The notes beneath the pieces were generated by a model, which searched no databases, was not told the origin of the DNA, and saw nothing but the letters and a program-made list of their open reading frames with translations. This document shows, piece by piece, positions 1 through 9,756 of a stretch of 9,756 nt of DNA; the first letter of the stretch is position 1, and every line of letters begins with the position of its first letter. Source of the stretch: a virus (taxonomy: Duplodnaviria > Heunggongvirae > Uroviricota > Caudoviricetes); IMG/VR virus record IMGVR_UViG_3300029878_000054, positions 1-9,756 of that record. One strand, given 5' to 3'. A program made the position numbers and the translations under genes.

Positions 1-160
1 ATAGTGCGTTCACCGAATACGTGCGCAACAACCGTCTTCCGGAGACTGTCATACGCGTAAAACAGCCAGCGCTGGCGCGATTTAGCCCCGACATAGCCCC
101 ACTGTTCGTCCATTTCCGCGCAGACGATGACGTCACTGCCCGGCTGTATGCGCGAGGTTA
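1..160 (-). mobile_element. insB: IS1 internal fragment (partial insB, running off the left edge; IS1 left end and insA absent)
   Basis: Minus-strand translation of 1-132 reads [48 protein letters not shown], which I recognise as the N-proximal part of IS1 InsB. The IS1-like DNA stops near 160, where Ala-rich repeat DNA begins, so the element is broken internally rather than at an inverted repeat. Confidence 0.8.
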
Positions 161-393
161 GCGTTTGTTTCGCTGCTCTTTGCTGCTGCCTCGCTATTTT
201 TCGCGTTGGTTTCTGATTTTTTGGCTGCTGTCGCGGAGTTTGCCGATGCAGTTTGTGAGTCTGCTGCCGCCTGTGCGCTGTTATCCGCATTCGTCTCAGA
301 CGTTTTTGCGGCCTTCGCGGAATTTCCTGCCGCCGTTGCCGAGGAAGCTGCACTAACCCTGCGTCTGTCAGCACAGTAAAACCCGGTGTGCAT
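133..393 (-). pseudogene. Chimeric remnant ORF: side-tail-fibre-like Ala/Ser/Thr/Asn-rich repeat fragment whose last codons and stop are supplied out of frame by IS1 DNA
   Basis: 86-aa ORF with SETNA-type repeats ([20 protein letters not shown] ... [21 protein letters not shown]) resembling the shaft repeats of lambdoid Stf-family tail fibres. The N-terminus ([13 protein letters not shown]) is implausible and the frame closes 4 codons upstream. The C-terminal NLAHTAGQ-stop lies inside the IS1 fragment. Confidence 0.4.
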
Positions 394-668
394 CGTTTTT
401 GATTATTCCCGCACACTCACGCAGAAGGAATTCCCCGTCGGGCTACGGTCATGGTTAATGCGGGAATACGGCGACGATACAGCGCAGCTAAAAGGGTAAT
501 AGACGGATAGACCGGTTTATTTCATTCCACAGGATTCTGAGTGTCCCCAACTTCCTCCAATAGTCTGAGCGTACACCTATATAGTTTTAATTTTCATCAA
601 TCCATTTAACTATCGTTTAATTGTTGTCACATAGGATTCTGCCGTTTTTAACAATGCAGGATAATAAG

Positions 669-962
669 ATGAAAAAAATGTTGTTTTCTGCCGCTCTGGC
701 AATGCTTATTACAGGATGTGCTCAACAGACGTTTACTGTTGGAAACAAACCGACAGCAGTAACACCAAAGGAAACCATCACCCATCACTTCTTCGTTTCG
801 GGAATTGGACAGGAGAAAACTGTCGATGCAGCCAAAATTTGTGGCGGCGCAGAAAATGTTGTTAAAACAGAAACCCAGCAAACATTCGTAAATGGATTGC
901 TCGGTTTTATTACTTTAGGCATTTATACTCCGCTGGAAGCGCGTGTGTATTGCTCACAATAA
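669..962 (+). CDS. borD: Bor-family outer-membrane lipoprotein (lambda Bor / serum-resistance lipoprotein homolog), 97 aa
   Basis: MKKMLFSAALAMLITGC... has a signal peptide with lipobox ITGC and matches lambda Bor almost along its length. AGGA lies 7 nt upstream of the ATG at 669. The ORF-track start at 621 is a TTG extension and is not used. Confidence 0.9.
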   Translation: MKKMLFSAALAMLITGCAQQTFTVGNKPTAVTPKETITHHFFVSGIGQEKTVDAAKICGGAENVVKTETQQTFVNGLLGFITLGIYTPLEARVYCSQ

Positions 963-972
963 TTGCATGAGT

Positions 973-990
973 TGCCCATCGATATGGGCA
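973..990. terminator. Hairpin between convergent bor and Rz (stem TGCCCAT / ATGGGCA, 4-nt loop); possible weak bidirectional terminator
   Basis: 7-bp perfect inverted repeat seen directly in the 31-bp gap between the bor stop (962) and the Rz/Rz1 stop (994). No U-tract on either side, hence low confidence. Confidence 0.3.
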
Positions 991-993
991 GCT

Positions 994-1455
994 CTATCTG
1001 CACTGCTCATTAATATACTTCTGGGTTCCTTCCAGTTGTTTTTGCATAGTGATCAGCCTCTCTCTGAGGGTGAAATAATCCCGTTCAGCGGTGTCTGCCA
1101 GTCGGGGGGAGGCTGCATTATCCACGCCGGAGGCGGTGGTGGCTTCACGCACTGACTGACAGACTGCTTTGATGTGCAACCGACGACGACCAGCGGCAAC
1201 ATCATCACGCAGAGCATCATTTTCAGCTTTCGCATCAGCTAACTCCTTCGTGTATTTTGCATCGAGCGCAGCAACATCACGCTGACGCATCTGCATGTCA
1301 GTAATTGCCGCGTTCGCCAGCTTCAGTTCTCTGGCATTTTTGTCGCGCTGGGCTTTGTAGGTAATGGCGTTATCACGGTAATGATTAACAGCCCATGACA
1401 GGCCGACGATGATGCAGATAACCAGAGCGGAGATAATCGCGGTTACTCTGTTCAT
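994..1455 (-). CDS. rzpD: Rz-type i-spanin (inner-membrane spanin subunit), 153 aa
   Basis: N-terminal TM helix ([18 protein letters not shown]) followed by a charged coiled-coil-like region; near-identical to DLP12 RzpD as I recall it. The ATG at 1455 overlaps the endolysin stop (ATGA arrangement). The ORF-track start at 1467 is GTG. Confidence 0.85.
1053..1235 (-). CDS. rzoD: Rz1-type o-spanin (outer-membrane lipoprotein), 60 aa, embedded in the +1 frame of Rz
   Basis: [20 protein letters not shown]... has a signal peptide with lipobox VVGC and a proline-rich mature part ([15 protein letters not shown]); it lies wholly inside Rz in another frame, the classic Rz/Rz1 arrangement. Confidence 0.8.
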
Positions 1456-1949
1456 TGCTGACCCCACAAACAGATTTCACGCTCAATCTCACGACGAGTC
1501 ATGAGACCTTTCCATTGCTTACCGCCAGCATATGTCCAGCGACGTAGCTGATCACATGCGCCTTTGATATCGCCCTGGTTTATTTTGCGAAGAAGCGTCG
1601 ATGTTCTGAAATTGCCAGCACCCACGTTGTAAACGAATGAGTAAAGAGCGCCGCGCATTGTTTCCGGTATATCGACTTTGATGTACGGGTTAATTTGTCT
1701 GGCGACCGTGGCAAGGTCTTTATTCAGGAGGGCTTTGCATTCTGCTTTGGTATACGTTTTACCGAGCATGATGTCTTTTCCTGTATGCCCGTGACATACA
1801 GTCCATACACCAACAATATCTTTGTATGGTATGTAGCTGACACCTTCCAGACCATCGTTACCACTTGGGCCAGTAATTAACACTGATGCTATAGCAATTG
1901 CTCCGCCACCAATAGCAGCAGCAACGGCTTTTCGTAATGATGGAGGCAT
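1452..1949 (-). CDS. rrrD: SAR endolysin (phage lysozyme, T4-lysozyme-like, phage 21 R type), 165 aa
   Basis: N-terminal signal-arrest-release segment ([20 protein letters not shown]) followed by a lysozyme core ([23 protein letters not shown]); the start ATG shares one nucleotide with the holin stop. Confidence 0.9.
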
Positions 1950-2164
1950 TATTCACCTCTCGCAGCCTTGCGCTTATCTTCTTTAATCTTGAAATAAAGG
2001 TTTGTCAGGTACGTCAGCAGGCCAAATACCAGGCTACCCAGCACACCTATTGCTGCCCACTGTGAGGGCGTGACTTTATCGAGCAGCTGTAAAAACCAGT
2101 AACCGGCACTACCTGCTGAGGTGCCATAGGCGACACCCGTTGTTAACTTATCCATGGATTTCAT
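1949..2164 (-). CDS. essD: Pinholin (phage 21 S-type class II holin) with dual start motif MKSMDK (antiholin/holin), 71 aa
   Basis: [71 protein letters not shown] has two TM segments and a charged C-tail. GAGGTGG lies 7-13 nt upstream of the ATG at 2164. The ORF-track start at 2209 is rejected. Confidence 0.85.
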
Positions 2165-2753
2165 AACCCCACCTCGCAGACAAAGCGGGTGTAAATTGAG
2201 GGAATACAACGTATCGCAAAAAAGCAGAAACGTAACAGACTCGGAGTCAGTGAATAACTCAGGTATTGAGTTATCAGCTAATATCGAGACTCAAAAAATG
2301 GAAAAACCAGCTCGACGGCGGGTTTAAGCTGTGTGACGAAGTAACCACTCTTAACAGCATAACCAATTTTTTACGTACGTAAACCACTGAATGATATTTA
2401 TGAGAATGCTACTGAGTGTTCAAAACACCACCACAAATACATAAGAAAACCTCAACAAATAACCAACAAATAATTTCCAGTGTTATTTTTAGCCGATTTA
2501 AATTGAACCTTCAAATTATAGAGCGCTTATAAATAACAGCCGTTAATATAAATTGGCTAATAGATTTATTTTTATTCAGCCAAGAGCTATGAATAGGATT
2601 CGATAGAAAAAAGTTCAGATAAAAATAGAGATCTACTTCACAAATCAAACGAGAAACCAAAACTTACATCTTGAAATAATCACATTGATTAGATGAATAT
2701 TTATCGCGCAGTGACATCATTTTTTAATAATAGTTCAAAAAAAAGGGCTCACG

Positions 2754-3851
2754 ATGAAAAAATTAACAGTGGCAATTTCTGCTGTAGCTGCATCAGTACT
2801 GATGGCGATGTCTGCTCAGGCAGCTGAAATTTATAATAAAGACAGTAACAAGCTGGATCTGTACGGGAAAGTTAATGCCAAGCACTACTTCTCCTCTAAT
2901 GATGCAGATGATGGTGATACTACTTATGCCCGTCTTGGCTTCAAAGGTGAAACCCAAATCAACGATCAACTGACTGGTTTCGGTCAGTGGGAATATGAAT
3001 TCAAAGGCAACCGCGCTGAATCTCAAGGTTCCTCCAAAGACAAAACCCGTCTTGCATTTGCAGGCCTGAAATTCGGTGACTACGGCTCAATCGATTACGG
3101 CCGTAACTACGGTGTAGCATACGACATCGGTGCGTGGACTGACGTTCTGCCAGAATTCGGTGGCGATACCTGGACCCAAACAGATGTGTTCATGACTGGT
3201 CGCACCACTGGTGTTGCAACCTATCGTAACAACGACTTCTTTGGTCTGGTTGATGGTCTGAACTTTGCTGCTCAGTACCAAGGCAAAAACGATCGTAGCG
3301 ATTTCGATAACTACACTGAAGGTAACGGTGATGGCTTCGGTTTCTCTGCTACCTATGAATACGAAGGATTCGGTATCGGTGCAACTTATGCGAAATCTGA
3401 TCGTACCGACACTCAAGTTAATGCAGGGAAAGTTCTTCCTGAAGTATTTGCTTCCGGTAAAAATGCAGAAGTTTGGGCCGCAGGTCTGAAATATGACGCT
3501 AACAACATTTACCTGGCCACTACCTATTCTGAAACCCAGAATATGACTGTATTTGCTGATCACTTCGTTGCTAATAAAGCCCAAAACTTCGAAGCTGTTG
3601 CACAATATCAGTTCGATTTCGGTCTGCGTCCGTCCGTTGCTTACCTGCAATCTAAAGGTAAAGATCTTGGAGTATGGGGCGATCAGGACTTAGTCAAATA
3701 TGTTGATGTAGGTGCAACCTATTACTTCAACAAAAATATGTCTACTTTCGTTGATTACAAAATCAACCTGCTTGACAAAAATGACTTCACTAAAGCACTC
3801 GGTGTAAGCACTGATGACATCGTTGCTGTAGGTCTGGTTTACCAGTTCTAA
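2754..3851 (+). CDS. nmpC: General-diffusion outer-membrane porin, NmpC/OmpD type (OmpC/OmpF/PhoE family), 365 aa, apparently intact
   Basis: Signal peptide ending AQA, then AEIYNKD; porin-family sequence throughout; C-terminal ...VGLVYQF with terminal Phe. High-expression-style codon usage. It sits between Q and the lysis cassette on the opposite strand, as nmpC does in DLP12. Confidence 0.93.
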
Positions 3852-3860
3852 TCTGATTAC

Positions 3861-3901
3861 GAAAAAGATATGTTGCGGGAGGCGTTGCCTCCCCAACATA
3901 T
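3861..3901 (-). terminator. Rho-independent terminator for minus-strand (late, Q-side) transcription; candidate tR'-like terminator
   Basis: On the minus strand this is ATATGTTGGGGAGGCAACGCCTCCCGCAACATAT followed by CTTTTTC: a ~15-bp stem with one bulge and a 3-nt loop, then a U-tract. It is read directly from the sequence. Confidence 0.5.
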
Positions 3902-3988
3902 AAGTGGCTCCCTCAAGCCACTTCCTTTAGAAGCACAACCTTGCTTCTAACTATATAAACCTTCTGTTATATATTACCCTTTATTTTT

Positions 3989-4016
3989 GGGGGCGTCTCA
4001 ACGCCCCATTTTTAAT
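3989..4016 (+). terminator. Rho-independent terminator for plus-strand transcription (likely the distal terminator of the porin gene)
   Basis: GGGGGCGT-ctca-ACGCCCC followed by ATTTTTAAT on the plus strand; hairpins at 3902-3928 (AAGTGGCT/AGCCACTT then CCTTT) and 3927-3950 (TTAGAAGCA/TGCTTCTAA) lie just upstream. Confidence 0.5.
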
Positions 4017-4040
4017 AATTTTTAGTAAACAATTGGCATA

Positions 4041-4424
4041 TTAATTAGAGTTATTAACAACGATATCCATCTCTAACCGGATATCTAATGCCATTAACAT
4101 CCCTTCAATTATGCCCTCAGCCTTCTGTAACCTTTTCCCGATATAACCATCAGAGCAGCAATGCTTACCTGCCAGTGACATGAATGTCATACCGACTACA
4201 TAATAATCTACTAATAAATCGTGCAAATCGCTGTTGTTCTTTTTCAGACGGGCCATGCACCCGCAAATGATCATCGCGTCATCGTCACAACATTGCGGGC
4301 GAGATTTTACTTTTGAAGGAATTAATCCCTTAAAACCGGCGGCAATGGACGACCAGGTCACATCTTCATGATTATTAGCCGCCCACGCTCCCCAACGCTC
4401 AAGAACCATCTGAATATCACGCAT
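4041..4424 (-). CDS. quuD: Late-gene antiterminator Q (DLP12 QuuD type), 127 aa
   Basis: [24 protein letters not shown]...[18 protein letters not shown]...HCCSDGY matches QuuD as I remember it, including the Cys-rich zinc-binding region. Start chosen at MRDIQ (4424) rather than the ORF-track start at 4439. Confidence 0.85.
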
Positions 4425-4509
4425 CAACTTACTCCACAAAAATCAGACCAGAACGCCAATCACAAGCAAAAATCAACAAAACAGTATTAGTTGATTGTTA
4501 TCTCTGACT

Positions 4510-4632
4510 TCATACTCCTGCTCCTGTCAGGGTTTTGGCGTAATTCTTCAGTATTCGGTAATCGGTCAAAACAGAACCGGGGAAACGATATAAGCGCAGA
4601 TGCCCCCAGCGGTGGCGAAGAAGTTCTGCCAT
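4510..4632 (-). CDS. Small ORF (40 aa) between rusA and Q, at the position of ylcG in DLP12
   Basis: Hand translation of the minus strand gives MAELLRHRWGHLRLYRFPGSVLTDYRILKNYAKTLTGAGV-stop, starting 14 nt after the rusA stop. It is below the ORF-track size cut-off. No strong SD; identity to YlcG not verified. Confidence 0.4.
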   Translation of the reverse strand: MAELLRHRWGHLRLYRFPGSVLTDYRILKNYAKTLTGAGV

Positions 4633-4646
4633 ATAAAACTCAAACA

Positions 4647-5009
4647 TCATTCATTCCCCATTTCGGTGATGGTCAGTTCCAGCCTCCCACCTTTGGTAAC
4701 GGGCATCTTCACAACGCGGTAATCAACGACCTGAGCATCATCCAGCCAGAAACCTGCTTTAGTGAGTGCGTCAAAAGCGGCTTTTTGCAGATTATCCAGG
4801 TCACGGCGACGGCGATCCGGCATGTGGCACTCAATGCGGATTTTCACAGGCATAGCCAGGCCGATATCCAGCATTGCGTTTTTAATGATTCGGGCGACGT
4901 TATCGCGGTATGCCTGCCCCTCTGCGCTGATGTGCGTGCGCCCGCGATTATGGCGGTAATAGCGATTATTGCTCGGAGGCCAGGGTAATGTGATGCTGTA
5001 GGTATTCAC
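4647..5009 (-). CDS. rusA: Crossover-junction endodeoxyribonuclease RusA (Holliday-junction resolvase), 120 aa
   Basis: [26 protein letters not shown]...[51 protein letters not shown] is essentially the K-12 RusA sequence as I recall it; the start overlaps the ybcO stop (ATGA). Confidence 0.95.
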
Positions 5010-5296
5010 GCCTTAATAACCCCCTCTTTCAGCCAGATAACCTGTGTTCTCGCCATACCTTCCAGCGCACATTCTTTTGCATATGCAGCATCGACAAAAT
5101 GTGTGCGGCGGTCGATTTCGTCGTGGCAGGCAGAACATGCAATGGTGGCAATCAGGTCTGGCGGTTTGATACCGGTACCGCACAATCCAGCCAGCCGGAT
5201 ATGTGCCAGTACAGACGTTTCAGGGTTGCCATTACATACGCCAGGGATTCTTACCTGGCATTCCCGACCACGCGCTGCTTTTCTCAAATCAGCCAT
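5006..5296 (-). CDS. ybcO: YbcO-family protein (DUF1364, Cys-rich putative nuclease of lambdoid nin regions), 96 aa
   Basis: [62 protein letters not shown]... with a strong SD (AGGAGG) before the ATG at 5296; the ORF-track extension to 5335 uses a TTG and is rejected. Confidence 0.85.
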
Positions 5297-5459
5297 GACT
5301 CCTCCTTGCTGCCAGTCGCAACCATTTTTTATCAACCAAGCTGGCGGTATATCCGAGCAGTGTTGGTATTTCGGAAGGCTTCAGCTCAGGTTTACGCTTA
5401 CGACGATTTGGTACTCTGTAAATGTGCCCGTTCATGACACGAATAAGCGGTGTAGCCAT
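5289..5459 (-). CDS. ninE: NinE-family small protein, 56 aa
   Basis: Hand translation gives [56 protein letters not shown]-stop, with the basic KRKP...WLR pattern of lambda NinE. The start shares one nucleotide with the ybcN stop and the end overlaps the ybcO start by 8 nt. Not in the ORF track because of its size. Confidence 0.6.
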   Translation of the reverse strand: MATPLIRVMNGHIYRVPNRRKRKPELKPSEIPTLLGYTASLVDKKWLRLAARRSHG

Positions 5460-5914
5460 TACGCCTCCTGCTTGTCGCGCAGCAGCTGGAACTCGCAGCT
5501 CTGCGGAATAGTCAGGTGGCAGCCAATATTCATCGCCCAGGCTTCAACCTTACACAGGAAGACATACATCTCTCCGGTATCAAGATCGGAGGTATGGCGT
5601 AACGACTGGATAGTAGTGATTTCGCCGGTTACGACATCAACCAAGTCCTTGGTTTCATAACCGAGGTATGTGTGTTTGAGTGCATCTTTTACCCATACTG
5701 CAGTAGCGAACGTTTTCCCCCTGCTGATGAGGTACTCGCTGATTTCGCTGTACCACATGTGGCTGAGTGCATTCTGGGAAAGACTGCGTCTCTCGCGCCA
5801 CGGTTTAAGCACCATGCGAAAGCATTTTCCGTCCTCCAGATAAGGCTGGATCTGCTGACCGATAGTGGTGAAGTTACCGCGATGTAATTTGATGCCGTCT
5901 TGTGGGAGGTTCAC
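5459..5914 (-). CDS. ybcN: NinB/Orf-family recombination protein (DLP12 YbcN-like), 151 aa, GTG start
   Basis: Contains the [12 protein letters not shown] motif characteristic of NinB-family proteins; GGAGGTG sits 4-10 nt upstream of the GTG at 5914-5912. Confidence 0.85.
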
Positions 5915-6012
5915 GCTTCACCTCCGCAGAGGTCAAACGTTGGATGCAAAGAATCGCAGGTGCATTTCTGCATCTGTGAAGGGAGAAGAGAGTTTAGATT
6001 GTATGTGCGCAT
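5911..6012 (-). CDS. Small ORF (33 aa) upstream of and overlapping the ybcN start, at the position of ylcH in DLP12
   Basis: Minus-strand hand translation gives [33 protein letters not shown]-stop; its TGA overlaps the ybcN GTG (GTGA). Length equals K-12 ylcH (33 aa) as I recall, but the sequence identity is not verified. Confidence 0.35.
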
Positions 6013-6301
6013 AAACGTCCCCGTTTAGCGCAGAAGTCACCGGAGGTGTTCAGGCTCCGATGCGATAATTATGACGATCTGATTTTGGAAAATCAAATTT
6101 AAGTAACCGCCAACCTATAATTTTCAATCAAGATTTCATTTATTAGCTCACTCATATAAAAATACATTACAACGTTTTTATCTCTTAATTTATGAAGGCA
6201 ACCTCGAAAAACAAATCACCCAAACACTTTAAAACAATTAAACCCGTTTAAAATTACAATTACATTTAGAAAGCAAACTTTCAAAAGATGTGATGATACA
6301 A

Positions 6302-6330
6302 TTGCATAAAACAAATACTTGGGGTAAAAT
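6302..6330 (+). promoter_or_regulatory. Candidate sigma70 promoter for the AT-rich cargo operon (TTGCAT-N17-TAAAAT)
   Basis: -35-like TTGCAT at 6302-6307 and -10-like TAAAAT at 6325-6330 with 17-nt spacing, about 100 nt upstream of the first ATG of the island. AT-rich DNA generates such matches easily, hence low confidence. Confidence 0.3.
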
Positions 6331-6436
6331 ATAAAAATAACACTCCCAGCTTAACGCTAGGTGGCGGTAGCGTGTATTTTTCAAATACGCCTATCACCCC
6401 ATTATGTTTTTTCATATTTAAGAGATTGGTTATATA

Positions 6437-6811
6437 ATGGAACTAATATACACTTATATCCACAATTATAAAGGTTTAAATAAGCTGTCCCTCCCCACCT
6501 CAAGTAAATTTACCTTTAGCCATAAAGGTAACGTCCTTACAATTGCTAAGAAAGATTTAAGTCGTGACTATTATAGCAATATTCCCTGTACATTAATTTT
6601 AGGGAAAAATGGTGTTGGAAAGTCATCAATTTTAGATTTCATTAGTAGCTTTATTTACGATTTTGAAGGTAGCGGTTATAGCATCTGGAATGAAAATGAT
6701 AAACTTATAATTATCACAAGCAATTGCAAACCTCCTGTAATATTATCCAAAATGCAAACGGAACTGATTGATAATAATGAACATTTTTTAGAAGAAACAA
6801 AATCAATCTAA
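6437..6811 (+). CDS. N-terminal portion of an ABC/AAA15-type ATPase (Walker A only); probably the 5' half of a gene split by a frameshift
   Basis: P-loop LILGKNGVGKSSILD at residues ~53-67; no Walker B, signature or H-loop motif in this ORF. The frame ends at 6811, 31 nt after the downstream frame opens. Confidence 0.7.
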   Translation: MELIYTYIHNYKGLNKLSLPTSSKFTFSHKGNVLTIAKKDLSRDYYSNIPCTLILGKNGVGKSSILDFISSFIYDFEGSGYSIWNENDKLIIITSNCKPPVILSKMQTELIDNNEHFLEETKSI

Positions 6812-6843
6812 TAAAGATAAATAACACAATCGACCTCAAAAGT

Positions 6844-8223
6844 ATGTTAGTTGGACAAAAAAAGAAAAAAAACGATTCGATTTCTAAAGATTTATCACTG
6901 TCATATTTTTTGCAAGGCAGTAAAACACGCAATAAGAAATTACTCAAGCAATTAATTTCATTTTCAGACCACAGTTCATGGGCTAAAGACAATTTATCAA
7001 GACTTAATACTAAATTTCAATTTGAAATAGAAAACTCACCAGTATATAAAATAAATTCTATTATAAAAAACAATGATATTGGTGACAAAGGACTTTTTGG
7101 AGCTATTGAATACTTTTTTGATACGTTGAATGATAGAATTAAAAACAATAAACTCCCTAGATATATTGAACGTGATTTAGATTCTTTAGGTATTTCACTT
7201 GTGGATATACTCAATCATGGGATAGATTACGATGAAGATTTTATTATTAGCATTATTTTTAACAAAGAAAGATCATTAAATTTCCTCGCAACCTTTTCAT
7301 ATCACAAAATAATTTACTTGATGCTTTTGCCTGCAATAACATGGCATTTACTCAAGACATCAAAAATCCCTAAAGACATATGTGAGACTGTTTATTTATT
7401 TTGCTTGTGTCGCGCGTATCTTGAAGAAAAAGATCCAGCAAAAACTATATTAGAGACTTTAGATGAATTTAACGTTAATGTTAAATTTCAGTCAAAAATA
7501 GAAATGTTATCTGAACATATCTCCGACATTATAGGTAATATAGCTGATATATTAGAAAACACAGCAAGAGACCCAGTTGATAGTTTATCTTTCACAGTTG
7601 AAGAACCAAAGCAGATTATGGAGTTAATAAGATTAGTTGATAGGTTACCAAATGGCGTATCATCGCGATTTAAGTATGGTTGGGATTCACTTAGTTCAGG
7701 AGAGTTTGCAAAATTAAACCTTTTCAATCAACTTTATGATTCTATAGAACATAGCAACAGCAAAAATATTATAATATTATTAGATGAGTGTGATTTATAT
7801 CTACACCCTGAATGGCAACGAGTTATTTTTTCAGAAATTATAGATTTAACATTAAGATATAAACAAAGTAAAAATATTCAATTAGTATTTACAACTCACT
7901 CCCCTATACTCGCAAGTGATTTTTTGCCATCAGATATAATATATCTTGAAAGAGATCATAATCAAGGAACCTATACTAAGAAAGTAGAGTTTGGTTTCGG
8001 AGCAACCATATCAGAATTATATATAAATGGTTTTTTTATTGATGCTACAATAGGACAGCACGCACATAATTATCTAAACTCAATAATAAAAAACTCAGAT
8101 GACGGTAATTTAAATAAACATCAAAAAACCATACTATCACAAATTAAAAATAAACTTCTCATAAATCTTATTGATCTGAAGTTAAACAAAAACAATGATA
8201 AAACAGATTCTTTTGAGAAATGA
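6844..8223 (+). CDS. C-terminal portion of the same ABC/AAA15-type ATPase (signature, Walker B and H-loop motifs); a fused model 6437..8223 gives ~595 aa if one T is added to the T6 run at 6784-6789
   Basis: LSSGE signature-like motif, Walker B IIILLDECDLYLHP and H-loop VFTTHSP; no Walker A. The frame is open upstream to 6781 with no ATG before 6844. Confidence 0.7.
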   Translation: MLVGQKKKKNDSISKDLSLSYFLQGSKTRNKKLLKQLISFSDHSSWAKDNLSRLNTKFQFEIENSPVYKINSIIKNNDIGDKGLFGAIEYFFDTLNDRIKNNKLPRYIERDLDSLGISLVDILNHGIDYDEDFIISIIFNKERSLNFLATFSYHKIIYLMLLPAITWHLLKTSKIPKDICETVYLFCLCRAYLEEKDPAKTILETLDEFNVNVKFQSKIEMLSEHISDIIGNIADILENTARDPVDSLSFTVEEPKQIMELIRLVDRLPNGVSSRFKYGWDSLSSGEFAKLNLFNQLYDSIEHSNSKNIIILLDECDLYLHPEWQRVIFSEIIDLTLRYKQSKNIQLVFTTHSPILASDFLPSDIIYLERDHNQGTYTKKVEFGFGATISELYINGFFIDATIGQHAHNYLNSIIKNSDDGNLNKHQKTILSQIKNKLLINLIDLKLNKNNDKTDSFEK

Positions 8224-8741
8224 GTAAAAAAATGATAAAAATAAACAAAGACTTCAATGTTGATGTAAAAATATCCTTTTCTAAAATAGTAAGCAAAGTT
8301 AATAAACGCGTGAAGCAGAGGAAGTTACTGAACATTACTCCCGATGAAGTAGAGTTTCTAAATACAATCAACAAAAAAACTATCAGAAAATTAGTTTTTT
8401 CAAAACCCAAACGATTAAAAAATATAATCATCAAAATATACAACAAACACCCAATTGTGTGTGAGTACTATTCTCCTGATTATTTTTTAAGGCACTTAAA
8501 TTTACAACCATTAACAAACCTACAATTACCTTTAAAAACAAAAGAAAACAAAAAAATAGTTTATAATGAACTAGCACATGCCATCAAAATAATCACATCT
8601 TTCTCTCAAACTACACAAAGCCTAATACTTGAGGATATATTAAATACACATTTCTCACCACAAAAATTATCTAGTTTAAGAGATAAGATTCTTAATCTTA
8701 TAAGTATCAAGAATGGTGGTCCTAAAGGAAAATACCATTAA
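8220..8741 (+). CDS. Hypothetical lysine-rich basic protein, 173 aa, unknown function
   Basis: ORF whose ATG overlaps the stop of the ATPase ORF (ATGA); no recognisable catalytic motif. An alternative start at 8232 (MIKINK) is possible. Same extreme AT-richness as its neighbours. Confidence 0.5.
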   Translation: MSKKMIKINKDFNVDVKISFSKIVSKVNKRVKQRKLLNITPDEVEFLNTINKKTIRKLVFSKPKRLKNIIIKIYNKHPIVCEYYSPDYFLRHLNLQPLTNLQLPLKTKENKKIVYNELAHAIKIITSFSQTTQSLILEDILNTHFSPQKLSSLRDKILNLISIKNGGPKGKYH

Positions 8742-9423
8742 GTTATTTCCATCATGGGTTAAAAATATTTCTGAAATATTTAAATACTCACTTATTGATA
8801 GAGAAACAGCGTATCAATTGAACAGTTTTTTAGACATTAGCATATGCCCATATTGCAACAGTGAAGAAATTGAACAAGTAGAAGACCATACAGGTACTAG
8901 CTACAGGCCAGCATTTGATCATTTCATACCTAAGTACAAATATCCGTTGATCTCCTTTAGTTTATTTAACTTAATTCCTAGCTGCACTAAATGCAATAGT
9001 ACTTATAAAAAATCACTCGATCCGATCATGAGCCCATTTTCAAATCCTTTTCTTGAAGGTGTAAATGACACTCAGCTTTTTGATTTTAATTATGACATTG
9101 ATTATATATATAGAGATGGCCAAATTGATGATGATCACATTCAAATTATACTAAAAAAACAAAAAAACAACATCGATGAAAACATGGCTAAACTTAGCAT
9201 AGAGAATAGATATAATTCACGCATTAGAAAGAAAGCAGTTAGATTAATTGCAAAGAGAGCATTTGATCTAAAAGCTTATGAAGAAAATTTCATTATAGAA
9301 CCAACTCTTTTCGCTACTTTCGGTTACGAGACTAACATTGAGCCGCTAAAGCATATGCATAAAAAACTTACTCAAGATGCAATATTAGTATTCTGCAACA
9401 AACAAGTACCGTTAATTGAATAA
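8713..9423 (+). CDS. HNH (His-Me finger) endonuclease-domain protein, 236 aa
   Basis: CPYC ... (22 aa) ... DHFIP ... NLIPS ... CTKCN, i.e. the CxxC / DH / N / CxxC arrangement typical of HNH nucleases, in the N-terminal half. The start overlaps the preceding ORF by 29 nt. Confidence 0.7.
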   Translation: MVVLKENTIKLFPSWVKNISEIFKYSLIDRETAYQLNSFLDISICPYCNSEEIEQVEDHTGTSYRPAFDHFIPKYKYPLISFSLFNLIPSCTKCNSTYKKSLDPIMSPFSNPFLEGVNDTQLFDFNYDIDYIYRDGQIDDDHIQIILKKQKNNIDENMAKLSIENRYNSRIRKKAVRLIAKRAFDLKAYEENFIIEPTLFATFGYETNIEPLKHMHKKLTQDAILVFCNKQVPLIE

Positions 9424-9680: not shown

Positions 9681-9756
9681 TGATCTTACCCAGCAATAGT
9701 GGACACGCGGCTAAGTGAGTAAACTCTCAGTCAGAGGTGACTCACATGACAAAAAC
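9681..9756 (+). mobile_element. Left end of an IS3-type insertion sequence (terminal inverted repeat starting TGATCTTACCCAGCAATAGTGGACACGCGG), continuing off the right edge
   Basis: The sequence from 9681 matches what I recall as the IS3 left end, including the GAGGTGA SD and the ATG at 9736 that begins orfA (MTK...). Confidence 0.75.
9736..9756 (+). CDS. insE: IS3 OrfA (transposase N-terminal subunit), first 7 codons only (partial at window edge)
   Basis: ATG ACA AAA AC... preceded by GAGGTGA 8 nt upstream, consistent with the IS3 orfA start MTKTVS... Confidence 0.6.

What the first reader, a model, noticed from the sequence alone, without database searches (positions are those of the whole stretch)
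6781..6844. The ATPase is split at a T6 run that is also a canonical -1 slippery heptamer (T TTT TTA)
Seen in sequence: the first ORF (6437-6811) has only the Walker A motif and the second (6844-8223) has only the signature/Walker B/H-loop motifs. The downstream frame is open from 6781, so the two frames overlap for 31 nt. The run t6784-t6789 in the zero frame reads CAT TTT TTA, i.e. the heptamer T TTT TTA. A one-base insertion (T6 to T7), or a -1 ribosomal slip on this heptamer, yields a continuous ~595-aa ATPase. Possible explanations are a sequencing/assembly homopolymer error, a real inactivating or phase-variable slippage mutation (switching off a toxic defence gene), or programmed frameshifting. 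There is no ATG between 6781 and 6844 and no good SD before 6844, which argues against an independent second gene.
Basis: partly seen in the sequence, partly recalled or inferred. Interest (0 to 1): 0.7.

Follow-up and report, generated by a model that had tools for sequence, protein, structure and literature searches.

The report
Frameshifted defence ATPase gene, real mutation
The "split ATPase" is one gene of a two-gene Septu-like candidate phage-defence cassette in an E. coli prophage, broken by a real, inherited one-base deletion in a run of seven T's; it is an ordinary decaying pseudogene, not a sequencing error and not programmed frameshifting.

Summary
ORF1 (6437-6811, Walker A) and ORF2 (6844-8223, signature, Walker B, H-loop) are two halves of one ATPase, split at T6 (6784-6789). 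Adding one T gives a 595-aa protein identical to WP_001702986.1.

All six complete E. coli genomes with the locus have T7. Homologues in eight other genera are single polypeptides of 547-612 aa.

T6 is not a sequencing error. The exact 124-aa ORF1 is on 49 public contigs, and several independent assemblies and a gut metagenome contig match the window 100% over 5.7-6.8 kb.

T6 arose at least twice. One assembly differs from ETEC-2264 by this base alone in 7313 nt. It does not switch back: 22 of 22 informative contigs of the window's lineage are T6.

Programmed frameshifting is not supported. T7 is the in-frame norm. U_UUU_UUA is outside the motif classes efficient in E. coli. No downstream structure exists, and 19 such heptamers occur in these AT-rich ORFs.

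The partner HNH gene also carries a 2-bp frameshift deletion, and an IS3 sits 260 bp downstream.

Verdict: homopolymer-slippage pseudogene of a PADLOC PDC-M62 cassette in a DLP12-like prophage. Low interest.

The parts
6437..8223 (+). Frameshifted (pseudo)gene for the ~595-aa ABC-type (AAA_15/AAA_21) ATPase, component A of the PADLOC candidate system PDC-M62 (Septu/PtuA-like).
   Evidence: With T7 restored it is 100% identical to WP_001702986.1. It matches PDC-M62A at 4e-44 over residues 1-570 in a single stretch. Pfam AAA_21 scores 51.6 bits and AAA_15 44.4 bits, both above cut-off.
6437..6811 (+). ORF1: the N-terminal fragment (124 aa). Walker A is at 6602-6625. The last 7 codons (LEETKSI) are out of frame, followed by TAA.
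   Evidence: It matches positions 1-127 of the PDC-M62A models. The exact sequence is on 49 contigs.
6784..6789 (+). T6 homopolymer, the site of a 1-bp deletion relative to T7 in intact alleles.
   Evidence: All 6 complete genomes have T7. Fifteen further loci carry T6 (L007-L016, L017-L021). Proteus has T7, Enterobacter has TTTCTTT, and Shewanella has no run.
6787..6843 (+). Conserved coding segment FRRNKINLIKINNTIDLKS, stranded in the -1 frame and belonging to neither ORF in this allele.
   Evidence: Translation. Conservation in homologues, with K127, N129 and N130 invariant.
6844..8223 (+). ORF2: the C-terminal 459 residues. Signature SLSSGE at 7687-7704, Walker B at 7768-7794, H-loop TTHSP at 7891-7905. 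No Shine-Dalgarno sequence lies upstream.
   Evidence: It matches positions ~182-585 of the PDC-M62A models.
8226..8232 (+). A7 run, which is A8 in the complete genomes. It lies just 5' of and overlapping the start ATG (8232) of gene B. The change merely puts the upstream ATG 8220 in frame and is probably harmless.
   Evidence: A 401-aa intact B, 4 residues longer than the 397-aa form as the in-frame upstream ATG 8220 would give (inferred), is on 92 contigs.
8232..9423 (+). Frameshifted gene B, the PDC-M62B HNH nuclease, which is 397 aa when intact. Here it is split into 8220/8232-8741 and 8713-9423 by a 2-bp deletion (TTT to T at 8723). The HNH motifs CPYC...DH...CTKCN lie in the second fragment.
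   Evidence: Intact B matches PDC-M62B at 1.5e-33 and the C-terminal fragment at 2.7e-32. Pfam HNH scores 21.4 bits, at cut-off. Fragment 8713-9423 is on 41 contigs.
9683..9756 (+). Left end of an IS3 element inserted about 260 bp downstream of gene B. It is absent from the complete genomes and from L009.
   Evidence: The alignment diverges at 9683. The sequence is 98.8% identical to annotated 'IS3-like element IS3 family transposase' copies in 4273 genomes. Three Logan contigs break at 9709.

Best explanation
The window carries a genuine, heritable loss-of-function allele of a single ATPase gene.

Mechanism. The ancestral gene reads ...GAA CAT TTT TTT AGA... (H-F-F-R). Loss of one T from the T7 run gives T6. 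This is the usual outcome of strand slippage at a homopolymer during replication (inferred mechanism). The reading frame shifts and translation ends 7 codons later at TAA 6809-6811. The product is a 124-aa Walker-A-only stub. The rest of the gene, which holds the conserved KINN segment, signature, Walker B and H-loop, is left without its own start signals.

What the gene is. It is component A of a two-gene cassette made of an ABC-type ATPase and an HNH nuclease. PADLOC files this as the candidate system PDC-M62, a relative of Septu PtuA/PtuB. The cassette is an AT-rich insert (27-31% GC) between replication gene P and the nin genes of a DLP12-like lambdoid prophage. It is transcribed opposite to the phage early genes.

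State of the locus in this lineage. The locus is decaying.
1. After the T6 mutation, the partner HNH gene acquired a 2-bp frameshift deletion.
2. An IS3 element inserted just downstream.
3. One relative has a further frameshift in the ATPase.

The 'slippery heptamer' T_TTT_TTA is only the by-product of deleting one base from T7 followed by A. At most it allows trace read-through.
For: One gene, normally intact:
- All 6 complete E. coli genomes with the locus have T7. Five of them annotate one 595-aa CDS.
- The window's repaired protein is 100% identical to WP_001702986.1.
- Intact 595-aa forms are on 262+166+40 contigs.
- Homologues at 26-90% identity in Morganella, Proteus, Citrobacter, Enterobacter, Atlantibacter, Vibrio, Shewanella and Pseudomonas are single proteins of 547-612 aa covering 96-100% of the query.
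- The junction segment is conserved.
- The A+B cassette is conserved as two intact ORFs in Proteus, Enterobacter and Shewanella.

T6 is a real allele:
- The exact 124-aa ORF1 is on 49 contigs and the exact 459-aa ORF2 on 32 contigs, from NCBI, JGI, ENA and Logan.
- L010 (a human gut metagenome contig), L012, L015 and L016 are 100% identical to the window over 5.7-6.8 kb.
- L007 differs from ETEC-2264 by the T deletion alone in 7313 nt. That rules out a noisy assembly and shows a second origin.

T6 is stable, and the locus is decaying:
- Of the 23 contigs read that carry the window's 2-bp deletion in gene B, 22 reach the T run and all 22 have the 124-aa ORF1. None has the 595-aa form. The 23rd (L022) does not reach the run.
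- L009 has T6 with an intact gene B and no IS3. This gives the order of events.
- L020 has an extra A8-to-A7 frameshift in the ATPase.
- Other strains carry different frameshifts at other runs: A7 to A6 in gene B on 200 contigs, and A8 to A9 in the ATPase of strain 90-9280.
Against: - I could not see reads or learn the sequencing platform of the public assemblies. 'Real allele' rests on concordance of many independent assemblies, not on pile-ups.
- The same deletion recurs on at least two backgrounds, and several other homopolymer indels occur in the locus. That would also be expected of a mutational hot spot used as a switch.
- Contig counts are not strain counts, because the same sample can appear in both NCBI and Logan.
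- No experiment shows that the T6 allele is non-functional, or that the intact cassette defends against phage.
Confidence: 0.86

Rival explanations
1. Sequencing or assembly homopolymer error: the real genome has T7 and the split is an artefact.
For: All six complete RefSeq genomes with the locus have T7. The window shows three indels against them, two of them in homopolymer runs. That is the pattern error-prone assemblies give.
Against: The window's exact haplotype (T6, A7, the 2-bp deletion and the IS3 junction) is reproduced base for base in at least 4 independent assemblies or metagenome contigs over 5.7-6.8 kb. ORF1 is on 49 contigs. Logan contigs break at the IS3 repeat, as short-read assemblies do (the platform is inferred). 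L007 has this deletion as its only difference from ETEC-2264 in 7.3 kb.
Confidence: 0.03
2. Programmed -1 ribosomal frameshifting on T_TTT_TTA: the two-frame arrangement is an evolved way of making the full-length ATPase, or of setting a ratio of short to long product.
For: The heptamer fits X_XXY_YYZ in the zero frame. A -1 slip would give a full-length protein differing from wild type only by F118L. U_UU.U_UU.A falls in the class that is efficient in eukaryotic systems (PMC4066793).
Against: The in-frame T7 is the state in all complete genomes and in about 90% of contigs, and every homologue is a single ORF, so the arrangement is not conserved. In E. coli the efficient U-motifs are H_HH.U_UU.Y, and ZZN must be all-purine or all-pyrimidine, which UUA is not. 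Without a stimulator, motifs give only 2.1-10 times a 0.055% background (PMC4066793). The 90 nt downstream fold at -2.9 kcal/mol, z = +0.89. I see no Shine-Dalgarno-like GGAG in the ~25 nt upstream (read by eye). Nineteen such heptamers occur by composition alone. The partner gene is broken in the same allele.
Confidence: 0.02
3. Phase-variable contingency switch: the T run flips between T7 (ON) and T6 (OFF) at an elevated rate, letting populations switch a costly defence system off and on.
For: T6 is found on at least two, possibly three, haplotype backgrounds. Within the ETEC-like clade there are 5 indel events against 2 SNPs in the 3.6-kb island. Indels hit several of the longest runs, T7, A8 and A7.
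Against: All 22 contigs of the 2-bp-deletion lineage that reach the run are T6, with no reversion. Secondary irreversible lesions (the 2-bp deletion, IS3, a further frameshift) have accumulated on the T6 background. A 7-nt run is short for slipped-strand phase variation (general knowledge). The run is not conserved in homologues: Enterobacter has TTTCTTT and Shewanella has none.
Confidence: 0.07
4. A functional split ATPase: ORF1 and ORF2 are made separately and reassemble, as the N- and C-terminal halves of some ABC/SMC-type ATPases can.
For: Walker A and Walker B/signature lie on separate lobes in this fold. Both fragments are called as genes by annotation pipelines.
Against: There is no start codon in 6781-6843 and no Shine-Dalgarno sequence before ATG 6844. 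The conserved 19-residue segment with invariant K127/N129/N130 is lost from both fragments. No homologue is naturally split.
Confidence: 0.02

Closest known systems
PADLOC candidate system PDC-M62 (A = ATPase, B = HNH protein)
   Same: The repaired ATPase matches PDC-M62A at 4e-44 across residues 1-570. Intact B matches PDC-M62B at 1.5e-33. The genes are adjacent and co-oriented. The same A+B pair occurs in Proteus, Enterobacter and Shewanella.
   Different: In this window both genes are frameshifted. PDC-M62 is itself an unpublished, untested candidate (PMC11811056).
Septu (PtuA ATPase + PtuB HNH nuclease), including the retron-associated PtuAB
   Same: The architecture is the same: an ABC-type ATPase followed by an HNH nuclease. 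PtuA models and solved PtuA chains match the C-terminal ATPase lobe (PADLOC 4.7e-19; PDB 8ee4 and 9kjx at about 1e-7). PtuB models match B at about 1e-8. In Bacillus genomes, DefenseFinder Septu calls and PADLOC PDC-M62 calls often fall on the same genes (PMC11811056).
   Different: Similarity is confined to residues ~440-580 of the ATPase. NCBIfam PtuA scores 48.5 bits against a cut-off of 500. B is 397 aa with an extra N-terminal domain of about 190 aa that has no match. No retron is present.
Homopolymer frameshift pseudogenes in decaying prophage or defence cargo
   Same: A single-base loss in a mononucleotide run, a premature stop, lineage-wide inheritance, and further lesions and an IS insertion nearby.
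   Different: Nothing distinctive, except that the same deletion arose at least twice.
Bacterial programmed -1 frameshift sites (dnaX, IS3/IS911 orfAB)
   Same: It is an X_XXY_YYZ heptamer in the zero frame with an open -1 frame.
   Different: The motif is of an inefficient class in E. coli, has no stimulator, and is not conserved. The in-frame allele is the norm.

Membership tests
PADLOC PDC-M62 two-gene candidate defence system | Protein A matches a PDC-M62A profile over most of its length. | tested here: met
   The repaired protein scores 4e-44 over residues 1-570 against model positions 1-548 of 597. ORF1 and ORF2 match the N- and C-terminal parts separately.
PADLOC PDC-M62 two-gene candidate defence system | An adjacent protein B matches a PDC-M62B profile. 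| tested here: met
   Intact B (397 aa) scores 1.5e-33. The window fragment 8713-9423 scores 2.7e-32.
PADLOC PDC-M62 two-gene candidate defence system | Both genes are intact in this window, i.e. the system is potentially functional. | tested here: not met
   A is split by T7 to T6. B is split by a 2-bp deletion.
PADLOC PDC-M62 two-gene candidate defence system | Demonstrated anti-phage activity. | not testable with these tools
   It is described as an unpublished candidate system (PMC11811056).
Septu PtuA/PtuB | The ATPase reaches the curated PtuA family threshold. | tested here: not met
   NCBIfam NF041760 PtuA scores 48.5 bits against a cut-off of 500, over the C-terminal lobe only. PADLOC PtuA hits reach 4.7e-19 but only over residues ~440-575.
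Septu PtuA/PtuB | An HNH nuclease partner lies immediately downstream. | tested here: met
   Pfam HNH scores 21.4 bits, at cut-off. PtuB profiles score about 1e-8. The CPYC...DH...CTKCN motifs are present.
ABC-type ATPase (Pfam AAA_15/AAA_21) | Pfam hits above gathering score, with Walker A, signature, Walker B and H-loop present. | tested here: met
   AAA_21 scores 51.6 bits (cut-off 27) and AAA_15 44.4 bits (cut-off 32.1). The motifs are located and are invariant.
Programmed -1 ribosomal frameshift site | A slippery heptamer of a class that is efficient in the host. | tested here: not met
   The heptamer is present. The efficient E. coli classes are H_HH.U_UU.Y and V_VV.A_AA.R, and a heterogeneous ZZN such as UUA shifts poorly (PMC4066793). 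No measurement was made on this site.
Programmed -1 ribosomal frameshift site | A stimulatory element: a downstream structure or an upstream Shine-Dalgarno-like sequence. | tested here: not met
   The 90 nt downstream fold at -2.9 kcal/mol, z = +0.89, and 162 of 200 shuffles fold at least as well. I see no GGAG-like sequence upstream (read by eye).
Programmed -1 ribosomal frameshift site | The two-frame arrangement is conserved among homologues. | tested here: not met
   All homologues and most E. coli alleles are a single in-frame ORF.
Slipped-strand phase-variable (contingency) gene | Tract length varies within a clonal lineage, i.e. reversible switching. | tested here: not met
   All 22 contigs with the lineage-marking 2-bp deletion that reach the run are T6. 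Within-culture heterogeneity is not testable here.
Slipped-strand phase-variable (contingency) gene | The same tract changes recurrently and independently. | tested here: met
   T6 is on the ETEC-2264 haplotype (L007, the only difference in 7313 nt) and on the window haplotype. The two are told apart by G/A at 6766, the A-run at 8373 and more than 20 flank SNPs.
Slipped-strand phase-variable (contingency) gene | The tract is conserved across homologues. | tested here: not met
   T7 is present in E. coli and Proteus only. Enterobacter has TTTCTTT and Shewanella has no run.

The most novel reading that the evidence does not exclude
The T7 run, and the other A/T runs of this cassette, act as a slow contingency switch. 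Recurrent T7-to-T6 slippage repeatedly turns off a costly, self-toxic Septu-like defence system in E. coli lineages. Trace -1 slippage on the resulting T_TTT_TTA heptamer keeps a very low level of full-length ATPase. Inactivation at this site would then be selected rather than neutral decay.
Probability: 0.07. Interest if true: 0.45.

Novelty: already known. Interest (0 to 1): 0.15.

Why it matters
The practical value is mainly for annotation. The two 'genes', deposited in public records as a 124-aa 'ATP-binding protein' and a 459-aa 'AAA family ATPase', should be annotated as one frameshifted pseudogene. The two ORFs downstream should likewise be one frameshifted HNH gene. Defence-system callers would then score this prophage cassette as inactive in this lineage.

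It is also a small, clean example of how an AT-rich, horizontally acquired defence cassette is lost. The route is homopolymer slippage at several runs, independently in different lineages, followed by IS insertion. It does not bear on recoding biology.

Tried and rejected
- Sequencing error. I compared the window with 6 complete genomes, then looked up exact proteins and contigs. Rejected because the allele is reproduced in many independent assemblies.
- Programmed frameshifting. I checked the literature rules for E. coli, the downstream fold, heptamer counts and shuffles and conservation in homologues. Rejected.
- Reversible switching within the lineage. I looked up the 236-aa B fragment, which marks the lineage. 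All 22 informative contigs are T6. Not supported.
- Looking up contigs of the A7/intact-B allele (P0035), to find the T7 progenitor of the window haplotype. The tool turned the look-up away. I therefore cannot say whether the T6 alleles on the window haplotype and on the L008/L014 haplotype share one origin. Only two independent origins are secure.
- The first literature query failed on syntax.
- Solved-structure and NCBIfam searches for gene B gave nothing significant beyond the HNH region. The N-terminal ~190 aa of B remain unassigned.
- No structure prediction was run. It would not bear on the question.
Full report
**1. Observation**

- ORF1 is 6437-6811 (124 aa) and contains the Walker A motif GKNGVGKS at 6602-6625.
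- ORF2 is 6844-8223 (459 aa). It contains SLSSGE (7687-7704), Walker B IIILLDECD (7768-7794) and the H-loop TTHSP (7891-7905).
- The run 6784-6789 is T6. The zero frame reads CAT TTT TTA GAA ... TAA (6809-6811).
- The -1 frame is open from 6781, after TGA 6778-6780.
- No start codon lies between 6781 and 6844, and no Shine-Dalgarno sequence precedes 6844.
- Adding one T gives a 595-aa ORF.

**2. What the gene is and where it sits**

The window is part of a DLP12-like lambdoid prophage of E. coli. RefSeq annotation of near-identical loci shows, in order: an nmpC-type porin, quuD, ylcG, rusA, ybcO, ninE and ybcN on the minus strand; then the ATPase and a hypothetical protein on the plus strand; then replication genes P and O, ydaT and the repressor region.

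The two plus-strand genes form an AT-rich island of 26-31% GC, against 43-53% in the phage genes.

The repaired ATPase is an ABC-type AAA_15/AAA_21 protein. Its best match is the PADLOC candidate PDC-M62A, at 4e-44 over residues 1-570 in one stretch. The downstream protein matches PDC-M62B and has HNH motifs. Weaker matches, limited to the C-terminal lobe, go to Septu PtuA/PtuB, including solved PtuA structures. PDC-M62 is an unpublished candidate whose calls often coincide with Septu calls (PMC11811056).

**3. T7 is the normal state**

- Six complete E. coli genomes carry the island at 99.3-99.9% identity. All six have T7.
- Five of them annotate a single 595-aa CDS.
- The window's repaired protein is 100% identical to WP_001702986.1.
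- Homologues at 59-90% identity (Morganella, Proteus, Citrobacter, Enterobacter, Atlantibacter) and at 26-32% identity (Vibrio, Shewanella, Pseudomonas) are single proteins of 547-612 aa covering 96-100% of the query.
- The segment stranded between the T run and ATG 6844, FRRNKINLIKINNTIDLKS, is conserved. K127, N129 and N130 are invariant in all 18 aligned sequences.
- The A+B cassette is intact in Proteus (591+398 aa), Enterobacter (602+396 aa) and Shewanella (559+396 aa). In Enterobacter it sits at the same P/nin junction of a lambdoid prophage.

So ORF1 and ORF2 are fragments of one gene.

**4. T6 is a real allele, not an error**

An exact-sequence look-up finds the 124-aa ORF1 on 49 contigs and the 459-aa ORF2 on 32 contigs, in NCBI, JGI, ENA and Logan. 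Intact 595-aa forms are on 262+166+40 contigs.

Four retrieved loci match the window 100% over 5.7-6.8 kb:
- L010, a human-gut metagenome contig;
- L012, an NCBI assembly;
- L015 and L016, Logan assemblies of different runs.

Where covered, the match includes T6, the A7 run, the 2-bp deletion and, in L010, the IS3 junction. Several Logan contigs stop at 9709, inside the IS3 repeat. That is the behaviour of short-read assemblies (platform inferred, not verified).

**5. How often it arose, and whether it switches**

L007 (Logan ERR4899693) is identical to the ETEC-2264 chromosome over 7313 nt except for this one missing T. It shares that clade's markers: A at 6766, A6 at 8373 and more than 20 flank SNPs. 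The window haplotype has G at 6766 and A7 at 8373. T6 therefore arose at least twice.

A third flank haplotype (L008, L014) is also T6. It could share ancestry with the window's island, and I could not resolve this.

Within the lineage marked by the window's 2-bp deletion in gene B, 23 contigs were read. Twenty-two reach the T run, all 22 have the 124-aa ORF1, and none has the 595-aa form. L022 does not reach the run.

L009 has T6 and A7 but an intact gene B and no IS3. The order of events was therefore T6 first, then the B deletion and the IS3 insertion. L020 has yet another frameshift, A8 to A7 at 6865-6872.

This is stable inheritance with accumulating damage. It is not on/off switching.

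**6. The locus decays the same way in other strains**

- The three ETEC chromosomes L002-L004 share A7 to A6 at 8373-8379. This truncates gene B to the annotated 322-aa form, which is on 200 contigs.
- Strain 90-9280 also has A8 to A9 at 6865-6872, splitting its ATPase.
- Within the ETEC-like group there are five indel events against two SNPs in 3.6 kb.
- The cassette contains 22 A/T runs of 6 nt or more.

**7. Programmed frameshifting**

Deleting one base from T7 followed by A necessarily leaves T_TTT_TTA, so the heptamer is not independent evidence.
- In-frame X_XXY_YYZ heptamers are common here: 19 in the four AT-rich ORFs and none in the porin gene. In shuffles of ORF1, 62% have at least one.
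- The systematic E. coli study (PMC4066793) finds that the efficient U-type motifs are H_HH.U_UU.Y. It finds that ZZN must be all-purine or all-pyrimidine for high efficiency. It also finds that motifs without stimulators give only 2.1-10 times a background of 0.055%. U_UU.U_UU.A belongs to the class that is efficient in eukaryotic systems only.
- The 90 nt downstream fold no better than shuffles, at -2.9 kcal/mol, z = +0.89.
- The T run itself is not conserved. E. coli and Proteus have T7, Enterobacter has TTTCTTT and Shewanella has none.
- A -1 slip would give a near-wild-type protein (F118L). The expected yield is a fraction of a percent, and the partner gene is broken anyway.

**8. Conclusion**

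The finding is a correctly observed frameshift. The best explanation (confidence about 0.86) is a genuine, inherited 1-bp homopolymer deletion. It has pseudogenised the ATPase of a Septu-like PDC-M62 cassette in a DLP12-like prophage, and in this lineage the whole cassette is being lost.

The rivals rank as follows:
- a slow contingency-type hot spot, about 0.07;
- sequencing error, about 0.03;
- programmed frameshifting, about 0.02;
- a functional split ATPase, about 0.02.

Both alleles and the family are already in public databases, so novelty is nil and interest is low. The useful outcome is corrected annotation.

Noticed in passing
window 8232-9423 (deletion at 8723): The partner gene B (PDC-M62B, HNH, 397 aa when intact) is also frameshifted in this window by a 2-bp deletion (TTT to T). 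This gives the overlapping ORFs 8220/8232-8741 and 8713-9423. The 236-aa fragment is on 41 public contigs.
   Followed up: yes
window 9683-9756: The left end of an IS3 element is inserted about 260 bp downstream of gene B, in front of the phage replication gene P. It is absent from the six complete genomes and from L009. Logan contigs of this lineage break at 9709.
   Followed up: yes
window 8226-8232: This A7 run is A8 in the complete genomes. It puts the upstream ATG 8220, which overlaps the ATPase stop (ATGA), in frame with the gene B start at 8232. A 401-aa intact B, 4 residues longer as that in-frame ATG would give (inferred), is on 92 contigs, so the change looks harmless.
   Followed up: partly
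L002-L004 (window equivalent 8373-8379); L003 and L020 (window equivalent 6865-6872): Other strains carry different homopolymer frameshifts in the same cassette. A7 to A6 in gene B is shared by three ETEC chromosomes, and the 322-aa annotation is on 200 contigs. The ATPase has A8 to A9 in strain 90-9280 and A8 to A7 in L020. In the ETEC-like group indels outnumber SNPs 5 to 2.
   Followed up: partly
L025 (Enterobacter ludwigii) 4001-6983; L023/L024 (Proteus mirabilis); L026 (Shewanella algae): The same ATPase+HNH cassette sits at the same P/nin junction of a lambdoid prophage in Enterobacter. In Proteus it lies next to an IS and an integrase. In Shewanella it lies between unrelated genes with no phage or mobile-element genes called nearby. 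It therefore moves as a two-gene unit.
   Followed up: partly
window 8232-8800 (N-terminal ~190 aa of gene B): The N-terminal half of gene B has no Pfam, NCBIfam or PDB sequence match. Only PDC-M62B profiles cover it. Its function is unknown.
   Followed up: no
window 2754-3851: An intact 365-aa OmpC/NmpC-type porin gene lies in the prophage late region, annotated 'porin' in related genomes. From memory, the K-12 DLP12 copy is interrupted by an IS; I did not check this here.
   Followed up: no
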